Part shown: piece by piece, positions 13,536-24,730 of the stretch
Layout of the letters: each line of letters starts with the position of its first letter
How positions within the stretch are numbered: the stretch's first letter is position 1
Source: an uncultured Thermoplasmata archaeon
GTDB lineage: Archaea > Thermoplasmatota > Thermoplasmata > RBG-16-68-12
Direction of reading: 5' to 3'
Length of the DNA: 24,730 bases
Assembly (NCBI GenBank): GCA_963768855.1
Contig: CAVYJM010000024.1
Span: 1 to 24,730, forward strand
The notes under the pieces: model-generated
The model's database searches: none
What the model was told of the DNA's origin: nothing
What the model saw: only the letters and a program-made list of their open reading frames with translations
Made by a program: the position numbers and the translations under genes

Positions 13536-15338
13536 TCACGTCTCGATGCGCTCGATCCGCCCGTTCGCCTCCGCCCAGCGTAGCAGGCGCAGGAAGGCCT
13601 GGGTCTCCGCGCCTCCGAGGGCGATCACATCGCCGCTACGGTACACGTTGCCCGTTTCCCAGTCCTTGACCACGCGCAGGACGCGGTAGCGGGGCTTCGC
13701 CTTCACCGCCATGAACTCGGCCATCTTCGCCGCGGCCCAGGAGTCCTTGAACGTCCCCTGAAACACGGCCAAGCGCTGGTGCGCGATGATCGCAATCTCA
13801 CTGCACACGTCGTTCAGGAAGCTGCGGTCGTGGCTCACGACGAGGACCATGCCCCCGTAGCCCTTCAGGGCCGCGGCCACGATCTCCTGGCTCTCGATGT
13901 CGAGGTGGTTCGTCGGCTCGTCGAGGACGAGGAGGTCGTAGTCCTGCGCGATGAACTTCGCGAGGGCGAGGCGCGCGCGCTCCCCGCCGCTCAGGGTGCC
14001 CACCTTGCTGTTCACCGCATCTCCGCTGAACCAGAAACGCCCGAGCAGGCCGCGAGCCCACCCTTCCGGGGGCGGCGGATTCCGGACGCTCCGAATCTCC
14101 TCGAGGAGGGTGTGATCGAAGTCGAGCTCCTCGGCCTCCTGCGCGAAGTAGCCGATGTTCAGGTTCTTGCCGCGGAACACGGACCCGGCGTCGGGTCTCA
14201 ACCGCCCGATGAGGATCTCGAGGAGCGTGGTCTTCCCCGACCCGTTGGGCCCCACGAGCCCGACCTTGTCGCCCTTGCCCAGTTCGAGGTCCACGTCGGA
14301 GAAGAGGAGACGGCTACCGTAGGACTTCGAGACCCCCTCCAGGCGAACGATGCCGGTTCCCGTGCCCGTGCGGAAGGAGAGTCGGAACGCCTTCGGGGCG
14401 GTTGGGCCCGCCTCGGGCGTCTCCCGCTTCATCTTCTCCACGCGGAGCTTGCGCGAGAGGACCTGCTCGTACACCTTGCGGGACTTGAACTGCTCGATGA
14501 TCGCGAGCTGCCGCTTGAGCTCCTCGCGGTGCCGATGGATCTGGGCTTGACGGGCACGGGCGATCGCATCGCGCTGCACGCGGTAGTCCGAGTAGTTGCC
14601 GATGTATTCCCACGTGCGGAAGCGGTCGATCTCGATGACCTTGTCCGCGATCGCGTCGAGGAGGAACTTGTCGTGGCTGGCGAGCAGGACGGCGGCGTCG
14701 ATCTCGAGGAGGAACTCCTCGATCGTCTCGATCGTGTCGATGTCCATGTGGTTCGTCGGCTCGTCGAGGAGGAGGATGTCCTTCGCCTGGGCGTTGGCCA
14801 GGGCCCGGGCCGTCAAGACCTTGGACTTCTCCCCGCCGGAGAGGGTCCCGAAGGTCTGGTCCAGCAGCTCTTCTTCGACGCCCAGGTCGTTGAGGATCGG
14901 GTCGTTGACGATGACCGACCGGCTGCGGGCGCCGCCCAGAGCCACATGGAGCGATTCATAGCGGGCCATGCGGGCGTTCGCGTCGGGCGCGTCCCACGCG
15001 TCGGGACGAGCCATCCAGGCCTCCAGTTCGGCCAGCTCGGCTTCGATTCGCTGGGCCTCCGGCGTGGGAGCGCTCAGGACGTCGCGGACAATCGTCCCGT
15101 CCGGGATGTTGGGGATCTGGGGGAGATACCCGAAGCGCAGCTCAGGCTTGGAGACGAGGTCGCCCACGTCCGGCTTCGTCTCCCCCGCGAGGAGCTTGAA
15201 CAGCGTGCTCTTGCCCGCACCGTTCGGGCCGACCAGGGCGACCTTCTCGCCGGTCTGGATGACGAAGTCCGCGTGCTCGAGGACGAGCGTCCCGCCCCAG
15301 GATTTCCGGAGGTCGCGGCCCGCGACGATCGGGGACAT
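13536..15338 (-). CDS. ABC-F family ATPase (ribosome-associated type)
   Basis: Two NBDs (GPNGAGKS/LSGGEKSK/LLDEPTNHMD and GPNGSGKT/LSGGERAR/LVLDEPTNHLD), a helical arm insert in NBD1, a helical inter-ABC linker and no TM segments. The start is ATG 15338 or 15353. Confidence 0.92.
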   Translation of the reverse strand: MSPIVAGRDLRKSWGGTLVLEHADFVIQTGEKVALVGPNGAGKSTLFKLLAGETKPDVGDLVSKPELRFGYLPQIPNIPDGTIVRDVLSAPTPEAQRIEAELAELEAWMARPDAWDAPDANARMARYESLHVALGGARSRSVIVNDPILNDLGVEEELLDQTFGTLSGGEKSKVLTARALANAQAKDILLLDEPTNHMDIDTIETIEEFLLEIDAAVLLASHDKFLLDAIADKVIEIDRFRTWEYIGNYSDYRVQRDAIARARQAQIHRHREELKRQLAIIEQFKSRKVYEQVLSRKLRVEKMKRETPEAGPTAPKAFRLSFRTGTGTGIVRLEGVSKSYGSRLLFSDVDLELGKGDKVGLVGPNGSGKTTLLEILIGRLRPDAGSVFRGKNLNIGYFAQEAEELDFDHTLLEEIRSVRNPPPPEGWARGLLGRFWFSGDAVNSKVGTLSGGERARLALAKFIAQDYDLLVLDEPTNHLDIESQEIVAAALKGYGGMVLVVSHDRSFLNDVCSEIAIIAHQRLAVFQGTFKDSWAAAKMAEFMAVKAKPRYRVLRVVKDWETGNVYRSGDVIALGGAETQAFLRLLRWAEANGRIERIET

Positions 15339-15466
15339 GTGCCAGGGAGCCATTCCGTCGTCATCGATTAGACTTCGCCCCGTCCTGGACACCCGTCACG
15401 GGGCTCCGTTCGGCGGAGCCGCACTTGCTCCGAACGAACCGAGTGCTTACCCCCCGACAGTGGTCG

Positions 15467-15511: not shown

Positions 15512-18418
15512 GTGTCGACACCAGAGTCTGGGTCGGCCGGCGAGGGTTCTCAAGCTCCCAAGTTGGAGATTCCCGCCGCCGGCAAACCGAAGCGCCGTAA
15601 GATCTTGATTGTGAGCATCGTGGTGGCCGTCATCGTCATCGCGGCGATTTCGGTGTGGGCTATCATCTACCTGGGGACGGGGTCGCTCAGCGTCAGCTCG
15701 ACGAGCCCCTTCGTAGCCGCGAAGAGCGCAGCGAGCTTCCAGGCCGTCATCACAACGCCGGCCCTGGTGAGCGCGGGGGCTGTCGGTTGGCAATTCGGCG
15801 ACGCGACCAACACGAGCGGCGCCGCGACGAACGTGAGCCATACCTATGCGTACCCCGGGAACTTCTTCATCTTCGCGTCGTCTTCCCTGAGCAACGGCAA
15901 AGCGGTGGACAACTCCATGTCGCTCTTCCCGCTGCAGGTGGGCCCGGCTCCTGTCACGGATCCCAATCCCTTGGGTGAGGCATCGGCCCTGGGCACCTTG
16001 ACAGTAAACAAGACGGCCTCGTCAGCCGGCGCTCCTTTGATCGCGGTGGGGGGTTCCATCCTCTTCCACGCTTCCATCCATGTCGCGCCAGACTTCGCTT
16101 GGTCGGACGAAGTGAACGCCATCACGAACGAATGGAACAACTACTCGTGGACCGTCACGAAGCTGACGATCGACTTCGGGGATGGCTCGGCGCCCTCCAC
16201 GAACACATCCACGCCGTTCGACGACACGGCAGCGGGATACCCGTACGAAGTGAGCCACCAGTACAGCACCGCTGGCCTCTATGCGGTCACCCTGTCCGTC
16301 ACGACCCAGAACTACTCCTTCCACCAGGTTGACGGGGTTCCCGCCGAACCCACGGCCACCCCGGTCTCGCCCGCGCAGACCCTGGCCACGATTGTTGGCC
16401 AGTCCGTGGCGGTAGGCAACTACCAGCTCGTGAGCTACACGCAAAACATCGTCAACCCTGGCACGATCGTGAACATGGAGTCCACAACGGGAGGGACGTG
16501 GACCCTCGATCCTTCGATCAACTACGTGGGATCGGAGCCGATCATTAACATCTACCAGACTCTCCTGGCGTACAACTACACGTCGACGACCGAGTTCGTG
16601 CCGATCATCGCGGATTCGATCCCCACGGTCGCGAACGGCGGCATCAGTGCCGACTTCATGAACTACACCTTCCACATCCGACAGGGCATCAAGTTCTCCG
16701 ATGGGACGCCCGTCACTCCGTGGGATGTGAAGTACTCCTTCACGCGCACGATGCTGTTCGTCGCCGGGTCGCCGCCGACCCCGGGATGGCTCATCTCGCA
16801 GTTCCTCGTCCCGACGGACGTGGATGGCAACTGGCTCTTGAGCTACGCCAACGTGAACGGCGCCGTCTCCATCGACAACTCGAGCCAGACGGTCACCTTC
16901 CATCTCGTGCTCCCTGCTCCGCCCGTGGTGTTCTACGAGATCATCACCAGCACCCTCGGGTGCGGAATCGCGAGCCACACGTGGCTGGAGAACGTGGGAC
17001 CGAAGCTCGTGTGGTCCGACGCCGGCTTCACGAACTATACGAAATACGGCGAACTCCAGAACTGGGTGAGCGCCTGGCGCAATGGCGCGGTCGGATCGGG
17101 GCCGTACATGATCGACTACGTCGCGAACCCCGACGCCATCGTGCTGAAGGTGAACCCGAACTTCAAGCCGGTCCTCGGCGATCCCCAGCCCACGGTCGCC
17201 AAGATCGTGATCCAGTACGTCGCGGACGACTCCACGCGGGAGCTCTCCCTGCAGACGGGCAAGGCGGACATCGCTACGATTTCGTCAAGCCGATACGCGG
17301 TGGCGTCGAACATGGCCCGGCAGGGCTTGATCTACATCCTCCCCATCCCATCGATGACCTTGTACTGGTGGAACTTCAACATGGAGATCTACCAGAGCGG
17401 CACGCCCCAGAACCCGTACGGGAACAGCGTGCCGCCGAACTTCTTCGTCGATCTCAACATGCGCAAGGCGTTCTTCTACGCCTACAACTTCCAACAGTAC
17501 ATCAACCAGATCTTGGGCAACGGGGTGTACAACACGAAGTTCGGGGAGCTGTACAACGGGATCATCCCGAACGGCATGCCCGGCTACGTGAACTACTCCT
17601 CCATGGACACGTACAGCATGACCCTGGCCCACCAGTACTACAACCAGACCCAGTGGGTCAAGGACCGCGGCTGGGCCACGTCCGGGTTCACGCTCGCGCT
17701 CAACGTGGGTCAAGAGGACCCGATCGCCTCGGCCGCTGCGACGATGTGGGCCCAGAGCCTAGAGCAGCTCGCGCCGGCGGGCCAGATCCACATCACGACC
17801 AACCCGATCACGGATGCGGAGGTCACGGCGGACGCCGTGCCGCATGCGAATCCGATGGCCATCTACTCCGTGGGCTTCGGATGGGCCCCCGACTACCCCT
17901 GGCCCACGGACTACACGGTGCCCATGCTTCTGCCCGGAATAACGTACGACACCCCCTACGGCGGATACTACACCGCAACGAACGGGTTCAACATCGAGTA
18001 CTTCCAGGGCGACGCGAACGGGACGGGCCAAGTCGCGAACATGACGAAGATGCTGAACTGGATCGACGACAGCACGGGTGTGAATGCGACGGACCTCGAC
18101 CAGGCGCTGTGGGATTCCCAGCAGGCGAACCTGATGGGGATGAACGAGACGTTGTACGTGCCCGAGTTCCAGCTGTTCAACCATGTCTACTACCGCACCT
18201 GGATCAACGGGATGGAGAAGGAGGCGAACCCGCTGCTCGGCGGCCAGTGGCTGCTGTACGCCTACCTCTCCAAGCCGTCGGGCGTCGCGACGTCCTCCGT
18301 CCCCTCGGGCACGTCCATCCTTGGATACCTCATCGCGTCGGGGCTCGCTGGCCCGCCCCTGATCGCCCTCCAGGGCACCCGGCGGTCCCGGACGGATTTG
18401 AAATGGAAGGAGGACTAG
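15512..18418 (+). CDS. Family-5 (DppA/OppA-like) ABC solute-binding protein with an N-terminal TM, two PKD-like domains and a hydrophobic C-terminal tail (968 aa)
   Basis: N-terminal RRKILIVSIVVAVIVIAAISVWAIIYL. PKD signatures WQFGDAT...SHTYAYPGNF and IDFGDGS...SHQYSTAGLYAVTL. SBP5 motifs TLDP, IYQTLL, YTFHIRQGIKFSDGTPVTPWDVKYSF, VGSGPYMI and NMRKAFFYAYN. Confidence 0.9.
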   Translation: MSTPESGSAGEGSQAPKLEIPAAGKPKRRKILIVSIVVAVIVIAAISVWAIIYLGTGSLSVSSTSPFVAAKSAASFQAVITTPALVSAGAVGWQFGDATNTSGAATNVSHTYAYPGNFFIFASSSLSNGKAVDNSMSLFPLQVGPAPVTDPNPLGEASALGTLTVNKTASSAGAPLIAVGGSILFHASIHVAPDFAWSDEVNAITNEWNNYSWTVTKLTIDFGDGSAPSTNTSTPFDDTAAGYPYEVSHQYSTAGLYAVTLSVTTQNYSFHQVDGVPAEPTATPVSPAQTLATIVGQSVAVGNYQLVSYTQNIVNPGTIVNMESTTGGTWTLDPSINYVGSEPIINIYQTLLAYNYTSTTEFVPIIADSIPTVANGGISADFMNYTFHIRQGIKFSDGTPVTPWDVKYSFTRTMLFVAGSPPTPGWLISQFLVPTDVDGNWLLSYANVNGAVSIDNSSQTVTFHLVLPAPPVVFYEIITSTLGCGIASHTWLENVGPKLVWSDAGFTNYTKYGELQNWVSAWRNGAVGSGPYMIDYVANPDAIVLKVNPNFKPVLGDPQPTVAKIVIQYVADDSTRELSLQTGKADIATISSSRYAVASNMARQGLIYILPIPSMTLYWWNFNMEIYQSGTPQNPYGNSVPPNFFVDLNMRKAFFYAYNFQQYINQILGNGVYNTKFGELYNGIIPNGMPGYVNYSSMDTYSMTLAHQYYNQTQWVKDRGWATSGFTLALNVGQEDPIASAAATMWAQSLEQLAPAGQIHITTNPITDAEVTADAVPHANPMAIYSVGFGWAPDYPWPTDYTVPMLLPGITYDTPYGGYYTATNGFNIEYFQGDANGTGQVANMTKMLNWIDDSTGVNATDLDQALWDSQQANLMGMNETLYVPEFQLFNHVYYRTWINGMEKEANPLLGGQWLLYAYLSKPSGVATSSVPSGTSILGYLIASGLAGPPLIALQGTRRSRTDLKWKED

Positions 18419-18423
18419 GGACC

Positions 18424-18720
18424 TCACTCCTCAACGATTTGCCGCTTGGTGCGAGGGGGCCAGAGGCGACGGTAGAGGCGGTGCTCCAGGAACGCCAGGA
18501 AGCCGAAGACGACGACGAGAGGGGGAACCGCCCAGAGCGGCTGCGCGGGCAGGAGGTCCAGGACCTGAAGCGGGGTGAACACATCGAGCGCCACGCAACC
18601 GACGACGTAGAAGCCTCGGATTGCATCCCCGAAGACGTAGACCAGTTCGGGATGGCGGCCGGCGAATCCCTGATCGTCCTCGGGTTCGTCCGGCTCCTCG
18701 GTGATGACCACCCGCGTCAT
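18424..18720 (-). CDS. Small membrane protein (98 aa), antisense to the transporter operon
   Basis: ATG 18720 with GGAGG. TTTATG at 18783-18788 on the minus strand. Acidic N-terminus, 2-3 hydrophobic segments and a basic C-terminus. It fills the SBP-permease gap without overlap. Confidence 0.7.
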   Translation of the reverse strand: MTRVVITEEPDEPEDDQGFAGRHPELVYVFGDAIRGFYVVGCVALDVFTPLQVLDLLPAQPLWAVPPLVVVFGFLAFLEHRLYRRLWPPRTKRQIVEE

Positions 18721-18890
18721 GCAGTCCTCCCGGCTCGTCGGGGAACGTTCCGGTCGCTTCCGCGCCCATCTCCCACCGACCTCATAAACATAGGGAGACG
18801 GCCGCATGAACCGCACGCGCGCTGCGGCATCAACGGGGAGGAGGGAGGATCCGGCCGCGACGCGACGGACCTGCCGTGGGTGGTGAGTAG

Positions 18891-19970
18891 GTGCGCCTGA
18901 GCCTCTACATCGCACGCAGGCTCGTCCTCCTGATCCCCACCCTCATCGGGGTCACGATCATCACGTTTGCCCTGAGCCACGCAGCCGGGCCGCTTTACTC
19001 GGCCGCGATGTACTGCAACCCCCACCTCCCCATTTCTTGCCCGGAACAGGTGAAGCCGATCATCGAGCATTACCATCTCAACGACCCCATCCCGGTGCAG
19101 TATGTCTACTACCTGAACGCCCTCGTCCGCGGGGACTGGGGCTTCACCTCTACGAGTCTCTTCCAGGGCACAGTCGTCGACGCGATCATCCTCTTCTTCC
19201 CGCCGACGATCGAGCTCGCCGTCGGAGCCACACTCCTCGCGACCCTGCTCGGGATCCCCACGGGCTCCATCTCGGCCGTGAAGAAGGACAAGGTCCCGGA
19301 CCACGTCACGCGCGTCGTGGCCCTCGCGGGCTACGCCGTGCCGTACTTTGTGCTCGCCATCTTTCTGCAAATCCTCGTTTCGGTTCTCTTGCCCACCTGG
19401 CCCATTTACGGAATCTACGACGCGAACGTGCTCAGTCCGAGCACAAGTCCCTGGGCGTTCTCAATCTTCGAGGGGGGATCGCAACTCTATCCGCAGCCCA
19501 CCCACATGCTCGTCATCGACGCCGCCATCCATGGCGACTGGCGGATCTTCTGGGATGCGCTGGCCCATCTCATCCTCCCGATTGTCACCTTGGCCTTTGG
19601 AGTCCTGGGGGTCATCCTCAGGATGATCCGGTCTGGCATGGTGGATTCCATGAACCAAGACTACGTGCGGACGGCCTGGGCGAAGGGGTTGCCCAAACGC
19701 GTCGTCATCGCGAGGCACGTCCGACGAAACGCGCTCCTTCCTGCGACGACCGTCATCGGTCTGCTGTTTGCGTACCTCCTCGGCGGCGTCGTGCTCGTCG
19801 AGGACGTCTTCGCGTGGAGCGGCCTGGGACGCTGGGCGACAGCGGCCATGCTTCGTTCCGACAGCGGGGGCGTCATGGGCTCCACTCTCATCTTCGCGCT
19901 CGCCCTCGTCTTCACAAACCTAGTGGTCGACATCATCTATGCGCGGCTGGACCCGCGCATTACACTGTGA
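18891..19970 (+). CDS. dppB: DppB/OppB-family ABC permease
   Basis: YIARRLVLLIPTL, LNDPIPVQYVYYL...GDWG, FPPTIELA, and EAA loop MNQDYVRTAWAKGL...RHVRRNALLP. Confidence 0.92.
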   Translation: MRLSLYIARRLVLLIPTLIGVTIITFALSHAAGPLYSAAMYCNPHLPISCPEQVKPIIEHYHLNDPIPVQYVYYLNALVRGDWGFTSTSLFQGTVVDAIILFFPPTIELAVGATLLATLLGIPTGSISAVKKDKVPDHVTRVVALAGYAVPYFVLAIFLQILVSVLLPTWPIYGIYDANVLSPSTSPWAFSIFEGGSQLYPQPTHMLVIDAAIHGDWRIFWDALAHLILPIVTLAFGVLGVILRMIRSGMVDSMNQDYVRTAWAKGLPKRVVIARHVRRNALLPATTVIGLLFAYLLGGVVLVEDVFAWSGLGRWATAAMLRSDSGGVMGSTLIFALALVFTNLVVDIIYARLDPRITL

Positions 19971-19978
19971 GGGTGGGA

Positions 19979-20920
19979 ATGGCGGCCGTGGATCTGGGCA
20001 GCTTGCGGGAGGCGCGACGGGAGACGGGTTCCCTCCGTCGCAGAGTCAGCGAGTACGCCCTCACGTTCCGCCTGTTCCTCCGGAGCCCGCTGGCAGCCAC
20101 CGGACTTGTGATCCTCCTGGTGTACGTCGCCGACGTAGTGTACGTTCAGTTCTTCATGGCCAACCCGGACCTGTTGTCGACGAACCTCAACGCGACCATC
20201 CCGTTGGCCCCTTTCTGGTGGCCCGGCGGCACCTCTGCAGGTGGCTGGATGGGCACGAGCTATCCGGGAATCGACCTGACATCCGGGATCCTGAAAGCCA
20301 TCCGGACGGACCTGATCTACTCGACTCTCGTCGTGATTGTCGGAGCCCTGATCGGGAGCCTGATCGGCCTCTATGCGGGGTATCGAGGGGGCCTGTTTGA
20401 CGAGGCCCTCATGCGTGCGACCGACGTCACCTACTCCATCCCCTTCCTCATCTTCGCCATGGCGGTGGGTTTTGCTTTTTACCAGCGGACCTTCCTAACC
20501 GTCAACATCGTCCTCCTGATCCTCTGGTGGCCGCCCTACGCGCGCCTCGTGCGAGCGCAGACCCTTTCCGTGAAGGAAATGAAATTCGTGGAGGCGGCCA
20601 AGATCGCCGGGGCATCGGACGCGCGCATCATGATGCGGCACGTCCTCCCGAACACCCTGGCGCCCGTCTTTGTCCAGGTCTCACTCGATCTGGGCGTCGT
20701 CGCGCAGGTTTTCGCGGCTTTGAATTTCATCGGATTCAATTCCGGGAATCCCTTGCTTCCTGAGCTGGGCAATCTCATCCAGAAGGGGTGGAGCGGTGGC
20801 TTTCTCAGCTATCCGTGGACCGTTGTCCTCCCCAGTCTTGCGCTCTTGATCTTCACCATTGCCGTCAACCTCGTGGGTGACGGCCTCCGCGATGTGATGG
20901 ACCCGCGGCTCCGAAGGTAA
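19979..20920 (+). CDS. dppC: DppC/OppC-family ABC permease
   Basis: This is the 3' 313 codons of track ORF 19037..20920. ATG 19979 has a GAGGGTG RBS. Motifs WMGTSYPGIDL, YARLVRAQTLSVKEMKFVEAAKIAGAS...RHVLPN and NLVGDGLRDVMDPR. Confidence 0.92.
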   Translation: MAAVDLGSLREARRETGSLRRRVSEYALTFRLFLRSPLAATGLVILLVYVADVVYVQFFMANPDLLSTNLNATIPLAPFWWPGGTSAGGWMGTSYPGIDLTSGILKAIRTDLIYSTLVVIVGALIGSLIGLYAGYRGGLFDEALMRATDVTYSIPFLIFAMAVGFAFYQRTFLTVNIVLLILWWPPYARLVRAQTLSVKEMKFVEAAKIAGASDARIMMRHVLPNTLAPVFVQVSLDLGVVAQVFAALNFIGFNSGNPLLPELGNLIQKGWSGGFLSYPWTVVLPSLALLIFTIAVNLVGDGLRDVMDPRLRR

Positions 20921-20924
20921 TCTC

Positions 20925-22688
20925 ATGAAACCGCTCCTCGCCGTCCGCGGACTGAAGACCGAGTTCGCGACCACGCACGGCACCGTCCGCGCGGTCGACG
21001 GCGTGGACCTGGAAATCGGGGAAGGCGAGGTGGTCGGACTCGTGGGGGAAAGCGGATGCGGGAAGTCCGTCACGGCGCTGTCCGTCATGTACCTCATCCC
21101 CCAGCCGCCGGGCCGGATCGCGGACGGCGAGATCTGGTTCAAGGACTTGGACCTCCTCGCGGGGGGGACCGACGAGGTCGTGGTCAAGAAGAGGCGTAAG
21201 GGTCGCCTGAAGCTCGTTCGTCGCGATGCCCTCATCGACCGACACCAGGCCCGGATGAGCAAGATCCGAGGCCGGGAAATCTCCATGATCTTCCAGGAAC
21301 CCATGTCGTCCTTGAACCCCGTCCTCCCTGTGGGCTATCAGGTTGCGGAGGTTCTCCTCTACCAGCGGCGGAGGCAGATCTGCGACGGCATCCTTTCACG
21401 CAAGGAGCTGGGGCCTGAGAATCTCAAGCGGTTCGAACAAATGGTGGCCACGGTGGATCCCACGGACCGCGAGCACCGCCTGGCGGAGTTCTGCGTGGAG
21501 AGCGGCTTGTCCGCGGACAAGGTCTCCGCGATCGCCAACGATTCGAAGCGCTCGATGAAGGAGAAACTCGAGGCGATCCGAACGCTCGGGGAACGCCGGC
21601 GCGTGGGGAGCCGGTGGTTCATCAACCTGATGAAGCGGCTCGACATCCTCGAGACGGAGCGCGCGACTCGCGAATGGCAAGCGCTCTCCCACACGACCCT
21701 CGCGAAGAACGCGATGCAGGCGTTCGACCCGTCCCGCAACCCGAAGGCCTCGGGCCTACCACCCCTCGCCAAAGTGTCCTTGCAGGCGGACGCCGTCCGC
21801 TTGGCGTTCCGGGTGCCGCCCACGGAGGAGCACCGGTCGCTCGTGGACGAAATCGTGAGGGACGTGGCCCAGGAGCCGGAGGGGGCGGCCTTCCGACTCG
21901 TGCGGAAGGTGTCCCTCGCCGCAGAGGGCATCGACCTGACCTTCGCCGAGGGAGAGGCCACGAGCTTCATGCATGAAACGGAGTACCGATCCCGGAGCCT
22001 CCTGTACCGTCTCCTCATGTTCATTCCCCTCCTGCGAGCCCGACTCATGAAGCCCTTGGAAGAGGAGGCCCGGCGGCAGGTTCTGGACCTGCTCAAGCTC
22101 GTGCGCATCCCGGAGCCCAGCAAGATGTACCGCGAGTACCCCCACGAACTGAGTGGCGGGATGCAGCAACGGGTGATGATCGCCATGGCCCTGGCTTGCG
22201 ACCCCGCCCTCATGATCGCGGACGAGCCGACGACGTCCCTGGACGTGACGACCCAGGTGCAGATCCTGAAGCTCATCCGAGACCTCCGCGCGAGGGTCAA
22301 CTCCGCCATCCTGTACATCACTCACGACCTCGCCGTGATCGCGGAACTGTGCGATCGCGTGGCCGTGATGTATGCGGGCAAGATCGTCGAGGACGCGCCG
22401 GTGAACGAGCTGTTCGCGCACCCTCTTCACCCGTACACCCAGGGTCTCCTCGAATCCATCGTCTCCATGGACTCGTTGAAGGTCGAGGTGGGCGCCCACC
22501 TCCCGACGATCCCGGGGACCGTGCCCGACCTGATCGACCCGCCGAAGGGCTGCCGCTTCCATCCCCGCTGCAAGTACGCGTTCGAACGATGCAAAATCGA
22601 GGATCCCCAGCTCCTCGGCCGGGGCAGCGTCCACAAGGTGGCGTGTCATCTCTACGATGAAGGAGGGTCTCGTGGTCCTGATGCGTGA
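20925..22688 (+). CDS. dppD: DppD/OppD-family ABC ATPase with a ~230-aa insertion (587 aa)
   Basis: GESGCGKS, MIFQEPMSSLNP, YPHELSGGMQQR, MIADEPTTSLDVT, YITHDL and C-terminal GCRFHPRC...C...ACHLY. Confidence 0.92.
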   Translation: MKPLLAVRGLKTEFATTHGTVRAVDGVDLEIGEGEVVGLVGESGCGKSVTALSVMYLIPQPPGRIADGEIWFKDLDLLAGGTDEVVVKKRRKGRLKLVRRDALIDRHQARMSKIRGREISMIFQEPMSSLNPVLPVGYQVAEVLLYQRRRQICDGILSRKELGPENLKRFEQMVATVDPTDREHRLAEFCVESGLSADKVSAIANDSKRSMKEKLEAIRTLGERRRVGSRWFINLMKRLDILETERATREWQALSHTTLAKNAMQAFDPSRNPKASGLPPLAKVSLQADAVRLAFRVPPTEEHRSLVDEIVRDVAQEPEGAAFRLVRKVSLAAEGIDLTFAEGEATSFMHETEYRSRSLLYRLLMFIPLLRARLMKPLEEEARRQVLDLLKLVRIPEPSKMYREYPHELSGGMQQRVMIAMALACDPALMIADEPTTSLDVTTQVQILKLIRDLRARVNSAILYITHDLAVIAELCDRVAVMYAGKIVEDAPVNELFAHPLHPYTQGLLESIVSMDSLKVEVGAHLPTIPGTVPDLIDPPKGCRFHPRCKYAFERCKIEDPQLLGRGSVHKVACHLYDEGGSRGPDA

Positions 22689-24567
22689 GGTCCAGGGAGA
22701 GGTGCTGATCGCTGCCGAAGGGCTGCGAAAACACTTCCCCGTCCGGGGAGGCTTCCTCCAGCGGGAGACGGCTCGCGTCCGGGCGGTGGATGGCGTCAAC
22801 CTGGCGATCCACCAAGGCGAGACCTTGGCCCTCGTCGGGGAGAGCGGTTGCGGCAAGACGACGCTTGGCCGGCTCCTCCTCCGGGTGATCGAGCCCACCG
22901 AGGGGGATGTGTTCTATGACGTTCCGGGGGACGAGTACCTCCGGTACAGAGACGGTCGAAGACGATCCAGGGAAACGGGGTCCGGCCCGCAGTCCGAGGA
23001 CTTCGAACAAAAGTATGCCATTACGAGGAGGGACCGCCTCACGGAGGCCGGGCATCTTCGACGGTCGCTTCTGCTCGCGCTGGCCGCGGCGACACTCGCC
23101 TCCCTCGTTGTCCCTTCCCTTCTCATGGTCGTCGCGGGATTGCCCTTCGACAATCTCTGGGCGGTCATCGGTTTCGGGATCCTCGTAGGAGTCCTCGCGG
23201 GGATCGTAGGTTCATTCCTCCTGACCGCGAGCATGGCGCGCTTTCCCGCCATCCTCGCAGGGATTGCTCTCGTGATGGTGAATGTGGACACGGTCCTCGC
23301 GCAGTGGATCGGTTCCGGTCTCGTTGGAGGAGGCCCGTTCGATGCGGGGACCGCCTATGTAGCCGCGTGGGAGGCGGGGAGCGTCGGAATGATCCTCGCC
23401 ATCCTCCTGGCTCCCATCGCTGCGGACGCGTGCGCCCGGGTCTTCCTCAGGTACGTGCGACGCGCGGCGCGATCCACCCATCACCGGCTCCGGACCATCC
23501 GCCGAGACATGCAGTCCGTCTTCCAAGATCCGTTCACCTCCCTGGACCCGCGGATGCTCGTGAAGGACATCGTCATGGAACCCATCCTGGTCAACCGGCT
23601 CATGGCACGAGCGGAGGCCGAAGAACGGGCGGCGGCCCTCCTTCAGGAAGTCGGGCTCCGGCCGGATTACCTGTATCGCTTTCCCCACGAATTCTCGGGA
23701 GGGCAGAGACAGCGAATCGCGGTGGCCCGGGCCTTGGCGCCCAGCCCCAAGTTCCTCCTCCTGGACGAGCCCACGTCGGCCCTGGACGTGTCCGTCCAGG
23801 CTCAGATCCTCAACCTGCTGAAGGACATCCAGCAGCAACAGGGGTTGACGTATCTGCTGATCACCCACAACCTCAGCGTCGTCAAGCAGATGGCGGACCG
23901 CGTCGCCGTCATGTACCTGGGGAAGATCGCCGAGCAGGCGGCGACGGCCGAGCTCTTCGAATCGCCCCTCCATCCCTATACGAGAGCCTTGCTCTCGGCG
24001 GTGCCCGTTCCCGACCCGAGACGGACGGCGGGACCGGATCATCCTCCCGGGAGATGTCCCGAGCCCCATGGACCCGCCGTCGGGATGCCGCTTCCACACC
24101 CGATGCCCCGCGGTGCTCCCCGTGTGCGGCTGGGGTCCGAAGGACATGGCTCCCCTGGCGAGGCATCTCTTCGACGCCTCGAGCAACCCGAAGGCCGTGG
24201 GGCTGCCGCCGCTGGAGGAGGTGTCCATCAAAGGACAGAGGCTCCGCCTCCTCTTCGGGAAGGCGCAGCCGACGGACGGCGAGCGGAAGCTGGTGGAGGC
24301 CCTCGTGAACGAGCAGCAGGGAGACGGCCCCTACAAGATCATGTTCCAAGCGGTGCGCCGAGTGTCCCTCCACGATTCCTCGATCGACCTGGAGTTCCTT
24401 CCCCGCGCGAACCGGAGATGATCGAGGTGACCCCACGACACGAATGCGCCTGTTTCCTGTTCCCGACGGGCGTGAAGGGCGAGTCCGTCTGGGGGCCTGA
24501 AGGTCCACCTGGAGACGTGGAGGTGGGCGGCACCCCGCTTCCGTCGGTGGACGTGGCGGGAGGATAG
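22672..24567 (+). CDS. dppF: DppF/OppF-family ABC ATPase with an inserted 4-TM domain and an inserted C-terminal domain; two compensating frameshifts (about 24025 and 24405)
   Basis: [49 protein letters not shown] and [14 protein letters not shown]. The C-terminal motif continues in the +1 frame ([24 protein letters not shown]) and returns to the original frame for [16 protein letters not shown] 22672 follows GGAGG; ATG 22681 is an alternative start. Confidence 0.9.
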
Positions 24568-24571
24568 GGGC

Positions 24572-24730
24572 TCAGACGATCCGACGATGGTGGCGGAGAA
24601 TCTCGACCACCTCGGGGACCGGGAGCTCCGGCGACGTGTTCCCATCCCGGCCGACGACGGTCTCCGCGGTGAACAGGGAGTCCACGATGGCCTCTTCGGT
24701 CGCTTCGACGGCGGCCAGGAAGAGCGAATC
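24572..24730 (-). CDS. C-terminal end of a P1/S58 (DmpA-like) aminopeptidase; the gene runs off the window
   Basis: The minus-strand frame reads DSLFLAAVEATEEAIVDSLFTAETVVGRDGNTSPELPVPEVVEILRHHRRIV*. This matches the DmpA-family C-terminal pattern LF.AA.EATEEAI.NAL..AET..GRDG. Confidence 0.75.
   Translation of the reverse strand, partial: DSLFLAAVEATEEAIVDSLFTAETVVGRDGNTSPELPVPEVVEILRHHRRIV

What the first reader, a model, noticed from the sequence alone, without database searches (positions are those of the whole stretch)
15512..24730. Remodelled archaeal peptide-type ABC importer: candidate undescribed transport/sensing system
Seen: several parts of this Dpp/Opp locus depart from the canonical layout. 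The SBP is 968 aa with PKD-like domains. An antisense membrane gene sits inside the locus. DppD carries about 260 extra aa in two inserts. DppF has a 4-TM domain inside its NBD. Both ATPases share a new domain. A DmpA-family peptidase converges on the operon. Established: canonical DppD/F are soluble ATPases of about 330 aa. Inference: the extra modules give the importer an added function, such as regulation, a membrane scaffold or coupling to peptide processing.
Basis: partly seen in the sequence, partly recalled or inferred. Interest (0 to 1): 0.8.

Follow-up and report, generated by a model that had tools for sequence, protein, structure and literature searches.

The report
Decorated archaeal peptide importer locus
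A peptide-uptake ABC transporter of an uncultured soil Thermoplasmata archaeon has motor subunits carrying conserved extra modules (four membrane helices, a helical stalk, a small unannotated domain present in both), plus a small membrane protein that travels with this operon across the whole class, none of which I found described; two frame breaks in this copy look like assembly errors.

Summary
All six observations are real. The locus is a Dpp/Opp (PepT-family) importer of a soil Thermoplasmata genus, with the same gene order in relatives.

- **Frame breaks:** the window's DppF has a +1 base near 24025 and a -1 base near 24401. Its copy of the shared domain is therefore out of frame. The window is a haplotig-like contig of a noisy assembly, and a sister contig carries an intact DppF. 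I read the breaks as probable assembly errors.
- **Modules are independent.** They were added at different depths and do not form one co-inherited system:
  - The 98-aa two-helix membrane protein and the DppF Cys-loop domain are class-wide. In Thermoplasma volcanium the small gene overlaps the dppF stop.
  - The long DppD stalk was found only in the window's genus. It carries 0, 1 or 2 copies of the domain.
  - The DppF 4-TM bundle was found only in the same genus, including in paralogous transporters that have a plain DppD.
- **No known family:** no Pfam or NCBIfam model covers the domain, the stalk or the small protein, and no clear fold match was found. I found no paper describing them.
- **Function:** regulation, membrane anchoring or an accessory subunit are inferences only.
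- **Earlier scan notes:** this scan already recorded TM inserts in peptide-importer ATPases of Marine Group II and Asgard archaea, and decorated ATPases in another Thermoplasmatota genome.

The parts
15512..18418 (+). Substrate-binding protein, 968 aa. N-terminal membrane anchor at about 15587-15694, PKD-like domains at about 15713-15871 and 16139-16303, SBP_bac_5 at about 16595-17935, then a Ser-rich linker and a weak C-terminal hydrophobic tail.
   Evidence: Pfam hits, translation, alignment with the L001 and L002 orthologues at 95% and 78% identity with no frame break, hydropathy.
18424..18720 (-). p98: a 98-aa protein with an acidic N-terminus, the conserved motif Y-x-F-G-D-x-x-R-G-x-Y-x-x-G-C and two hydrophobic helices. 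It converges on the SBP gene and diverges from dppB.
   Evidence: Homologues sit next to dpp operons in three Thermoplasmata families. In four genomes of two other families (among them T. volcanium TVG1395987) the homologue's start overlaps the dppF stop.
18891..19970 (+). DppB permease, 359 aa.
   Evidence: BPD_transp_1_N and BPD_transp_1, six hydrophobic stretches.
19979..20920 (+). DppC permease, 313 aa.
   Evidence: BPD_transp_1, translation, the same length in relatives.
20925..22688 (+). DppD ATPase, 587 aa. All ABC motifs are present, with a canonical C-x5-C-x6-C-x17-C tail.
21156..21233 (+). DppD basic insert of about 25 aa before the Q-loop. This is the same site as the DppF TM insert.
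   Evidence: Alignment A1. T. volcanium-type DppD has a similar insert.
21360..22058 (+). DppD insert of about 233 aa between the Q-loop helix and the signature helix. It is a helical bundle followed by two long antiparallel helices.
   Evidence: Alignments A1 and A2. The AF2 model has mean pLDDT 83. No Pfam hit.
21720..21953 (+). Copy of the shared alpha/beta domain (two strands, two helices, two strands), lying between the two long helices of the DppD insert in the sequence.
22681..24567 (+). DppF ATPase. The probable start is the ATG at 22681, because the ATG at 22657 is absent from the sister copy. The frame is broken twice in this window, and the intact sister copy codes 628 aa.
22927..23490 (+). 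DppF insert between Walker A and the Q-loop: a charged linker and then four hydrophobic helices at about 23056-23448. The flanks are rich in Arg. The loop between helices 3 and 4 holds conserved D, G, A-Y and W residues.
24021..24028 (+). One extra base relative to C21, C23 and L003. The homologous reading shifts to the next frame from 24029.
24167..24397 (+). DppF copy of the shared domain, nested between Cys3 and Cys4 of the [4Fe-4S]-type motif. In this window it is readable only in the shifted frame.
24398..24403 (+). One base missing from a C run relative to C21, C23 and L003. The original frame resumes at 24406.
24572..24730 (-). C-terminal 52 aa of a convergent DmpA-family (Peptidase_S58) aminopeptidase, cut by the contig end.
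   Evidence: The best solved relative of the full-length orthologue is 2DRH at E 2.7e-109; DmpA 1B65 and BapA 3N2W also match.

Best explanation
This is a working-type PepT-family (Dpp/Opp) peptide ABC importer of a soil Thermoplasmata genus. Its subunits carry lineage-specific modules that were added one at a time at three recurrent insertion sites of the ATPases.

**Shown**
- A small two-helix membrane protein (p98 family) is encoded in or beside this operon across the class.
- DppF carries an alpha/beta domain of about 78 aa inside the Cys3-Cys4 loop of its iron-sulfur-type tail.
- Thermoplasmata DppD proteins carry a helical insert after the Q-loop. In the window's genus it is long and bears 0, 1 or 2 copies of the DppF loop domain.
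- In the same genus, DppF-type ATPases of this locus and of paralogous loci carry four hydrophobic helices inside an older charged insert before the Q-loop.

**Inferred, with my odds**
- p98 is an accessory membrane subunit of the transporter (about 0.5).
- The four helices span the membrane with both ends in the cytoplasm, which would make DppF an integral membrane protein beside DppC (about 0.7).
- The two alpha/beta domains are cytoplasmic regulatory or docking modules that modulate closure of the ATPase dimer, as the C-terminal domains of MetN, ModC and MalK do (about 0.3).
- The two frame breaks in the window's DppF are consensus errors of a noisy haplotig, not biology (about 0.75).
For: **Core importer.** Pfam hits cover all five subunits. 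The ABC motifs and Cys motifs are read from the sequence. The Cys spacing matches E. coli DppD and DppF, which bind [4Fe-4S] clusters (PMC12136057).

**Synteny.** L001, L002 and L009 keep the same gene order and gene lengths.

**Stepwise modules.** Shown by tblastn maps of 20 loci and ORF read-outs, three searches of 300 class genomes each, and a paralogous locus in the same genome with a TM-bearing DppF and a plain DppD.

**p98.** The motif is conserved across three families. In four genomes of two other families its start overlaps the dppF stop by 11-23 nt. dN/dS is 0.21-0.29 in its frame only. There are 43 clusters, all unnamed or 'hypothetical', including T. volcanium TVG1395987.

**TM insert.** Hydropathy equals that of the permease helices. 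The flanks are Arg-rich. The helices are modelled at pLDDT 75-87. The insert persists at 23-35% identity in paralogues.

**Shared domain.** The AF2 segments have pLDDT of about 84-95 in both proteins. The domain profile finds only 17 proteins among 1.84 billion; 15 are DppD/DppF-type proteins or short unannotated pieces, and 2 are repeat proteins.

**Assembly errors.** The window overlaps five other contigs of the same assembly at 89-99% identity. Each copy has its own private indels, and the C21 copy shows 54 gap openings over 4.4 kb. The DppF on C21 is intact.
Against: - There is no expression or protein data.
- No structural match gives any module a function; the best was VIA-align Z 7.7, within the noise range.
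- The DppF full-length model is poor overall, with mean pLDDT 58, so how the inserts pack is unknown.
- p98 was not detected next to the paralogous TM-bearing loci, nor in L013, L015 and L016, so it may not be obligatory.
- The two indels compensate each other.
- Most relatives come from one genus, so conservation counts are not independent.
Confidence: 0.6

Rival explanations
1. The inserts are tolerated decorations or purely structural braces. They accumulated at permissive surface loops of the ATPases and add no regulatory or sensing function, and p98 is merely a neighbour.
For: - The modules vary freely between lineages: 0, 1 or 2 domain copies; a zinc ribbon in another family; soluble or TM inserts at the same site.
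- They do not co-occur.
- No ligand-binding fold was recognised.
Against: - The modules stay in frame and conserved down to 23-45% identity, with invariant residues, including in the outer loop of the TM insert.
- p98 shows purifying selection and keeps a start that overlaps the dppF stop in other families.
Confidence: 0.25
2. The window carries a truly inactivated DppF allele, in a decaying duplicate or a strain variant, so this copy of the importer is a pseudogene locus.
For: - There are two frame breaks within 380 nt.
- The genome bin has 7.7% contamination and several near-identical contigs.
Against: - The out-of-frame stretch is still 96-97% identical in DNA to the intact copies.
- The second indel lies in a homopolymer run.
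- Sister contigs carry different private indels, many of them in the C21 DppD, which is the pattern of consensus error.
- All other genes of the locus are intact.
Confidence: 0.15
3. The locus is not primarily an importer. It is a membrane sensing or signalling device built on an ABC scaffold.
For: The extra cytoplasmic domains, the extra membrane helices and the PKD-bearing extracellular protein could in principle serve signalling.
Against: - All catalytic and coupling elements of a PepT importer are intact.
- No kinase, transcription factor or other output module is present in the locus or in syntenic loci.
- Peptidase and amidohydrolase neighbours fit nutrient use.
Confidence: 0.05

Closest known systems
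E. coli DppBCDF/OppBCDF and M. tuberculosis OppABCD/DppABCD (solved PepT-family importers; PMC12136057; chains 8z1v_C, 8z21_D and 8wd9_D appear)
   Same: - A family-5 SBP, two BPD_transp_1 permeases and two ATPases with an oligo_HPY tail.
- The C-x5-C-x6-C-x16/17-C motif that binds [4Fe-4S] in E. coli is intact in DppD here.
   Different: - The solved ATPases are soluble proteins of 320-335 aa.
- Here DppD has about 260 extra residues and DppF about 290.
- DppF's fourth Cys lies 108 residues after the third.
- A sixth small membrane protein is linked to the operon.
- The SBP is membrane-anchored and carries PKD-like domains.
C-terminal regulatory domains of MetN (C2), ModC (TOBE) and MalK (from my own knowledge of trans-inhibition in type I importers)
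   Same: Extra cytoplasmic domains on both ATPase subunits of a type I importer. This is the working analogy for the alpha/beta domain pair.
   Different: - No sequence or fold relationship was found.
- The positions differ: one copy is nested in the Cys loop, the other sits on a stalk in the helical subdomain.
- No ligand is known.
TM inserts in PepT-family ATPases noted earlier by this scan: Marine Group II/Poseidoniales OppD, Asgard DppF, and another OppF-like gene of this same genome
   Same: Hydrophobic helices lie inside the nucleotide-binding domain of a peptide-importer ATPase in archaea. An even helix count returns both halves to the cytoplasm.
   Different: - The lineages, subunits and helix numbers differ.
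- Homology with the insert here was not tested.
- These are unpublished AI notes, not literature.
Helical arms inserted between the Q-loop and the signature motif in other ABC ATPases: Rad50/SMC coiled coils, the ABC-F arm, UvrA insertion domains (from my own knowledge)
   Same: The same topological insertion site as the DppD stalk, with long antiparallel helices carrying a distal module.
   Different: Those proteins are not transporters. No sequence similarity exists, and the weak MutS rows reflect long helices only.
Long Mollicutes OppD/OppF (NCBIfam NF043079 with 561 positions, NF043078 with 649 positions)
   Same: These are PepT ATPase models far longer than the canonical 318-334 positions. 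The signature region aligns at profile positions 341-537 and 475-609, so the extra length lies upstream of it.
   Different: Only the canonical parts match, with scores far below the cut-offs. Whether those inserts lie at the same sites or hold membrane helices was not examined.
Small accessory membrane proteins of transport complexes, such as KdpF, AcrZ and CydX (from my own knowledge)
   Same: A protein of at most about 110 aa with one or two TM helices, encoded in the operon of a large transporter.
   Different: No homology. Binding of p98 to the transporter has not been shown.

Membership tests
PepT-family (Dpp/Opp, TC 3.A.1.5) type I ABC importer | Family-5 extracellular solute-binding protein | tested here: met
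   SBP_bac_5 at E 1.4e-43, 149.9 bits against a cut-off of 32.4.
PepT-family (Dpp/Opp, TC 3.A.1.5) type I ABC importer | Two BPD_transp_1 permeases, the first with the N-terminal extension | tested here: met
   DppB has BPD_transp_1_N and BPD_transp_1. DppC has BPD_transp_1.
PepT-family (Dpp/Opp, TC 3.A.1.5) type I ABC importer | Two ATPases with ABC_tran and the oligo_HPY C-terminal region, and intact Walker A, Q-loop, signature, Walker B and H-loop | tested here: met
   Pfam hits. The motifs were read in DppD and in the intact DppF copy. The best NCBIfam matches are OppD, DppD and DppF models, all below their equivalog cut-offs.
PepT-family (Dpp/Opp, TC 3.A.1.5) type I ABC importer | Four-Cys [4Fe-4S] motif in each ATPase tail (C-x5-C-x6-C-x16/17-C in E. 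coli) | tested here: inconclusive
   DppD meets it (C543, C549, C556, C574). DppF has Cys1-3 with canonical spacing, but the next conserved Cys follows 108 residues later. Cluster binding was not tested.
PKD domain | Match to the Pfam PKD models above the gathering score | tested here: met
   PKD_4 scores 39.0 bits (cut-off 27) and PKD 36.3 bits (cut-off 23.5), with two stretches.
Peptidase S58 (DmpA/BapA aminopeptidases) | Match to Peptidase_S58 and to solved DmpA-family enzymes | tested here: met
   The window holds only 52 C-terminal residues. They are 82% identical to the syntenic 363-aa gene, which carries PF03576 and matches 2DRH at E 2.7e-109, 1B65 and 3N2W.
Known regulatory domains of importer ATPases (NIL/C2, TOBE, MalK-type) | Sequence or fold match of the shared alpha/beta domain | tested here: inconclusive
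   No Pfam hit at E up to 1. The best Foldseek E-value was 0.04. VIA-align gave Z of at most 7.7 to unrelated alpha/beta folds. Weak ArgR C-terminal rows appeared.
Claudin-like four-helix membrane domain (lead from an earlier scan note) | Fold match of the DppF four-helix insert | not tested
The whole-protein search was filled by ABC ATPases. The atlas feature search gave no usable hit.

The most novel reading that the evidence does not exclude
Thermoplasmata peptide importers are six-subunit machines. The p98-family protein would be an obligatory membrane subunit. In this genus DppF has itself become an integral membrane protein through a nested four-helix bundle. The paired alpha/beta domains, one in the DppF iron-sulfur loop and one on the DppD stalk, would form a ligand- or redox-responsive latch that gates ATPase dimer closure.
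Probability: 0.2. Interest if true: 0.75.

Novelty: new variant of a known kind. Interest (0 to 1): 0.6.

Why it matters
Importer ATPases are usually taken to be soluble and peripheral, with regulation confined to C-terminal domains.

- A conserved membrane bundle threaded through the catalytic domain would extend what an ABC motor subunit can be. So would a domain nested in the iron-sulfur loop and copied onto a stalk in the partner subunit.
- A class-wide small membrane protein tied to the operon would add a possible new subunit.
- Two of these features, p98 and the DppF loop domain, occur in cultured Thermoplasma volcanium, so the questions can be taken to the bench.
- Peptide uptake is central to the heterotrophic life of these archaea in soil.

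Tried and rejected
- **Complex prediction** of DppB + DppC + p98 gave no verdict: ipSAE 0.26 and 0.22 against a mark of 0.32, and the controls were not run. It counts neither for nor against binding.
- **Fold searches of the DppD insert** found nothing clear in PDB (Foldseek), in 48,161 PDB representatives (VIA-align) or in the ESM Atlas.
- **Fold search of the whole DppF model** returned only ABC ATPases.
- **Atlas feature searches** of the TM insert and of p98 gave no usable hits.
- **Family scans** of the inserts and p98 found nothing: Pfam and NCBIfam.
- **Two repeat proteins** among the domain-profile hits (P0160, P0162) were rejected as repeat or LRR artefacts.
- **The ORF 18330-18626 (-)** was rejected as the antisense gene, because its translation is unlike the conserved protein.
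- **NF043078 control search:** I hoped to inspect a Mollicutes OppF, but no Mollicute is among the control genomes.
- **Six literature searches** found no description of these modules. The library lacks most subscription journals, so this is weak evidence of absence.
Full report
**What is in the window**

The region 15512-24730 has about 65% G+C. On the plus strand it encodes:
- a 968-aa binding protein with an N-terminal anchor, two PKD-like domains and SBP_bac_5;
- DppB, 359 aa;
- DppC, 313 aa;
- DppD, 587 aa;
- DppF.

On the minus strand it encodes a 98-aa protein between the SBP gene and dppB, and the last 52 codons of a convergent gene. That 52-aa fragment is 82% identical to the end of a 363-aa Peptidase_S58 gene in a syntenic metagenome locus. 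The closest solved relatives of the full-length gene are DmpA-family aminopeptidases.

**Organism and assembly**

Related genome records are titled Thermoplasmata, Thermoplasmatota or Methanobacteriota archaeon MAGs. The window is a whole 24.7-kb contig of a 2.87-Mb, 24-contig bin that is 93.6% complete with 7.7% contamination. Most of the window is duplicated at 89-99% identity on five other contigs of the same bin, so it behaves as a haplotig or strain variant.

**The frame breaks in DppF**

The DppF ORF as read from the window turns into a Pro/Arg/Gly-rich stretch after about residue 465. The homologous sequence continues in the next frame from 24029 and returns to the first frame at 24406. 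Alignment with contigs C21 and C23 of the same bin and with locus L003 shows one extra base at about 24021-24028 and one base missing from a C run at about 24398-24403.

C23 has a different private indel in the same gene. The DppD on C21 is riddled with frame breaks, with 54 gap openings over 4.4 kb. The DppF on C21 is intact at 628 aa. I therefore read the window's breaks as consensus errors, at about 0.75.

**The inserts are real and conserved**

- *DppD.* Relatives of 580-615 aa, at 57-96% identity and 98-100% coverage, form about 45 clusters. Alignment shows a basic insert of about 25 aa before the Q-loop and an insert of about 233 aa after the Q-loop helix.
- *DppD model.* An AF2 model of residues 128-405 has mean pLDDT 83. 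It shows a helical bundle, then two long helices of 37 and 44 residues. Between them lies a small domain of two strands, two helices and two strands.
- *DppF.* About 188 extra residues lie between Walker A and the Q-loop. Four stretches are as hydrophobic as the DppB/DppC helices. The flanks are Arg-rich, and the loop between helices 3 and 4 has invariant residues. About 20 clusters share this insert.
- *DppF model.* The full-length model is poor, with mean pLDDT 58. The four helices score 75-87 and the C-terminal domain 84-92.

**The shared domain**

DppD residues 266-343 and the stretch between the third and fourth Cys of the DppF tail align at 44% identity. In E. coli DppD and DppF the corresponding four Cys bind a [4Fe-4S] cluster that the complex needs for stability (PMC12136057). 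Here DppD keeps the canonical spacing, while in DppF the domain splits the motif.

A profile of 36 domain copies found only 17 proteins among 1.84 billion representatives. Fifteen are DppD/DppF-type ATPases or short unannotated pieces, and two are repeat-protein artefacts. Pfam has no model for it, and the fold searches gave only noise-level matches.

**Co-occurrence test**

I mapped all components onto 20 loci, read out individual ORFs and ran three searches over 300 genomes of the class.

| Loci | p98 | DppD | DppF |
|---|---|---|---|
| Closest relatives (L001, L002, L009) | yes, antisense | stalk + domain | TM bundle + loop domain |
| Same genus, about 58% DppD identity (L010, L027, L028) | yes, now upstream of the SBP gene | stalk + domain | loop domain, no TM bundle |
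| L011, L012 | yes | stalk, no domain | loop domain, no TM bundle |
| Metagenome forms P0024, P0026 | not examined | two tandem domain copies on the stalk | not examined |
| Paralogous loci of the genus, including own contig C11 | not detected | plain | TM-bearing at 23-35% identity, with a divergent loop domain in the C11 copy |
| Other families, T. volcanium type (L024-L026) | yes, after dppF | shorter helical insert | charged soluble insert at the TM site + loop domain |
| Another family (L022) | yes, after dppF | Cys4 zinc-ribbon insert | no loop domain |

L001 ends inside DppF at residue 124, so its TM bundle and loop domain could not be seen. Full S58 genes are adjacent in L002 and L009, and the C11 paralogue has a 30-residue S58 match about 1.4 kb downstream. 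L002 and L003 also carry an amidohydrolase next to the peptidase.

So three surface sites of these ATPases have repeatedly accepted different modules. The modules seen here did not arrive together.

**The small protein**

The real antisense gene is 18424-18720. The ORF 18330-18626, equally long, is not the gene.
- It has an acidic N-terminus, a conserved Y-x-F-G-D-x-x-R-G-x-Y-x-x-G-C motif and two hydrophobic helices.
- Between close relatives, dN/dS is 0.21-0.29 in its frame and 0.3-2.6 in the other five frames.
- Weak homologues in other Thermoplasmata families all lie directly after dppF on the same strand. Their start overlaps the dppF stop by 23 nt in three genomes and by 11 nt in one.
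- One of them is TVG1395987 of Thermoplasma volcanium GSS1. All 43 clusters are unnamed or labelled 'hypothetical'.

This conserved linkage, despite changes in position and orientation, is the strongest new result. It makes an accessory membrane subunit the most likely role, at about 0.5. Physical association has not been shown, and the one complex prediction gave no verdict (see Tried and rejected).

**Mechanism**

- *Shown.* The core is a complete PepT importer.
- *Inferred from topology.* The even helix count, the positively charged flanks and the short conserved outer loop suggest that the DppF insert spans the membrane four times. This would tether DppF beside its permease partner; in E. 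coli DppF pairs with DppC (PMC12136057).
- *Inferred by analogy.* MetN, ModC and MalK use extra domains on both ATPases to control dimer closure. The two alpha/beta domains may act likewise, one of them wired to the iron-sulfur site. I give this about 0.3.
- *Neighbours.* The DmpA-family peptidase and amidohydrolase fit use of the imported peptides, but their linkage is shallow.

**Known or new**

I found no paper describing these modules, and no Pfam or NCBIfam model covers them. NCBIfam does hold unusually long Mollicutes OppD and OppF models, so long inserts in PepT ATPases are not unprecedented as sequences.

Earlier notes of this scan record related cases:
- TM inserts in OppD of Marine Group II archaea;
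- TM inserts in DppF of Asgard archaea;
- a decorated Thermoplasmatota importer with a PKD-bearing SBP and a zinc-ribbon insert;
- another TM-bearing OppF-like gene in this same genome.

This locus is therefore one more instance of a recurring, apparently undescribed archaeal theme. What it adds is the duplicated domain and the class-wide small protein. I class it as a new variant of a known kind, with interest 0.6.

Noticed in passing
window 1-24730 (contig C24) against C6, C19, C20, C21 and C23 of the same genome: Most of the window is duplicated at 89-99% identity on other contigs of the same bin, and each copy has private indels. The bin looks like a long-read assembly with unmerged strain variants, so any frameshift in it needs read support.
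   Followed up: partly
G000:C11:275869-280671 (L008): A paralogous dpp-like ATPase pair lies in the same genome. Its 615-aa DppF-type protein has a collinear four-helix insert and a divergent Cys-loop domain. Its DppD is plain. A 30-residue S58 peptidase match lies about 1.4 kb downstream.
   Followed up: partly
L029 (G226:C9:62000-81900): Two dppD/dppF-like ATPase pairs lie about 4 kb apart on the same strand in a congeneric genome. Each has a DppF-type ATPase with a TM insert at 26-28% identity to the window's.
   Followed up: no
L022:6645-8483 (+): In another Thermoplasmata family, DppD is about 600 aa and carries a Cys4 zinc-ribbon-like motif (C-x2-C ... C-x2-C) in its post-Q-loop insert. 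Its DppF has a soluble pre-Q-loop insert of about 140 aa and no loop domain.
   Followed up: no
P0024 and P0026 (metagenome DppD, 654-678 aa): Two tandem copies of the shared alpha/beta domain sit on the DppD stalk. The 503-512-aa forms have none.
   Followed up: partly
L002:13579-16354: In syntenic loci the convergent S58 peptidase is followed by a divergent 522-aa Amidohydro_3/Amidohydro_1 gene. This suggests a small peptide-catabolism cluster next to the importer.
   Followed up: no
window 13536-15392 (-): A 618-aa ABC-F-type protein lies just upstream of the SBP gene, with two ABC_tran domains and the ABC_tran_Xtn linker.
   Followed up: no
window 22657-22688: The ATG at 22657 is absent from the sister copy on C21. 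The more likely DppF start is therefore the ATG at 22681, which overlaps the DppD stop by 8 nt.
   Followed up: partly
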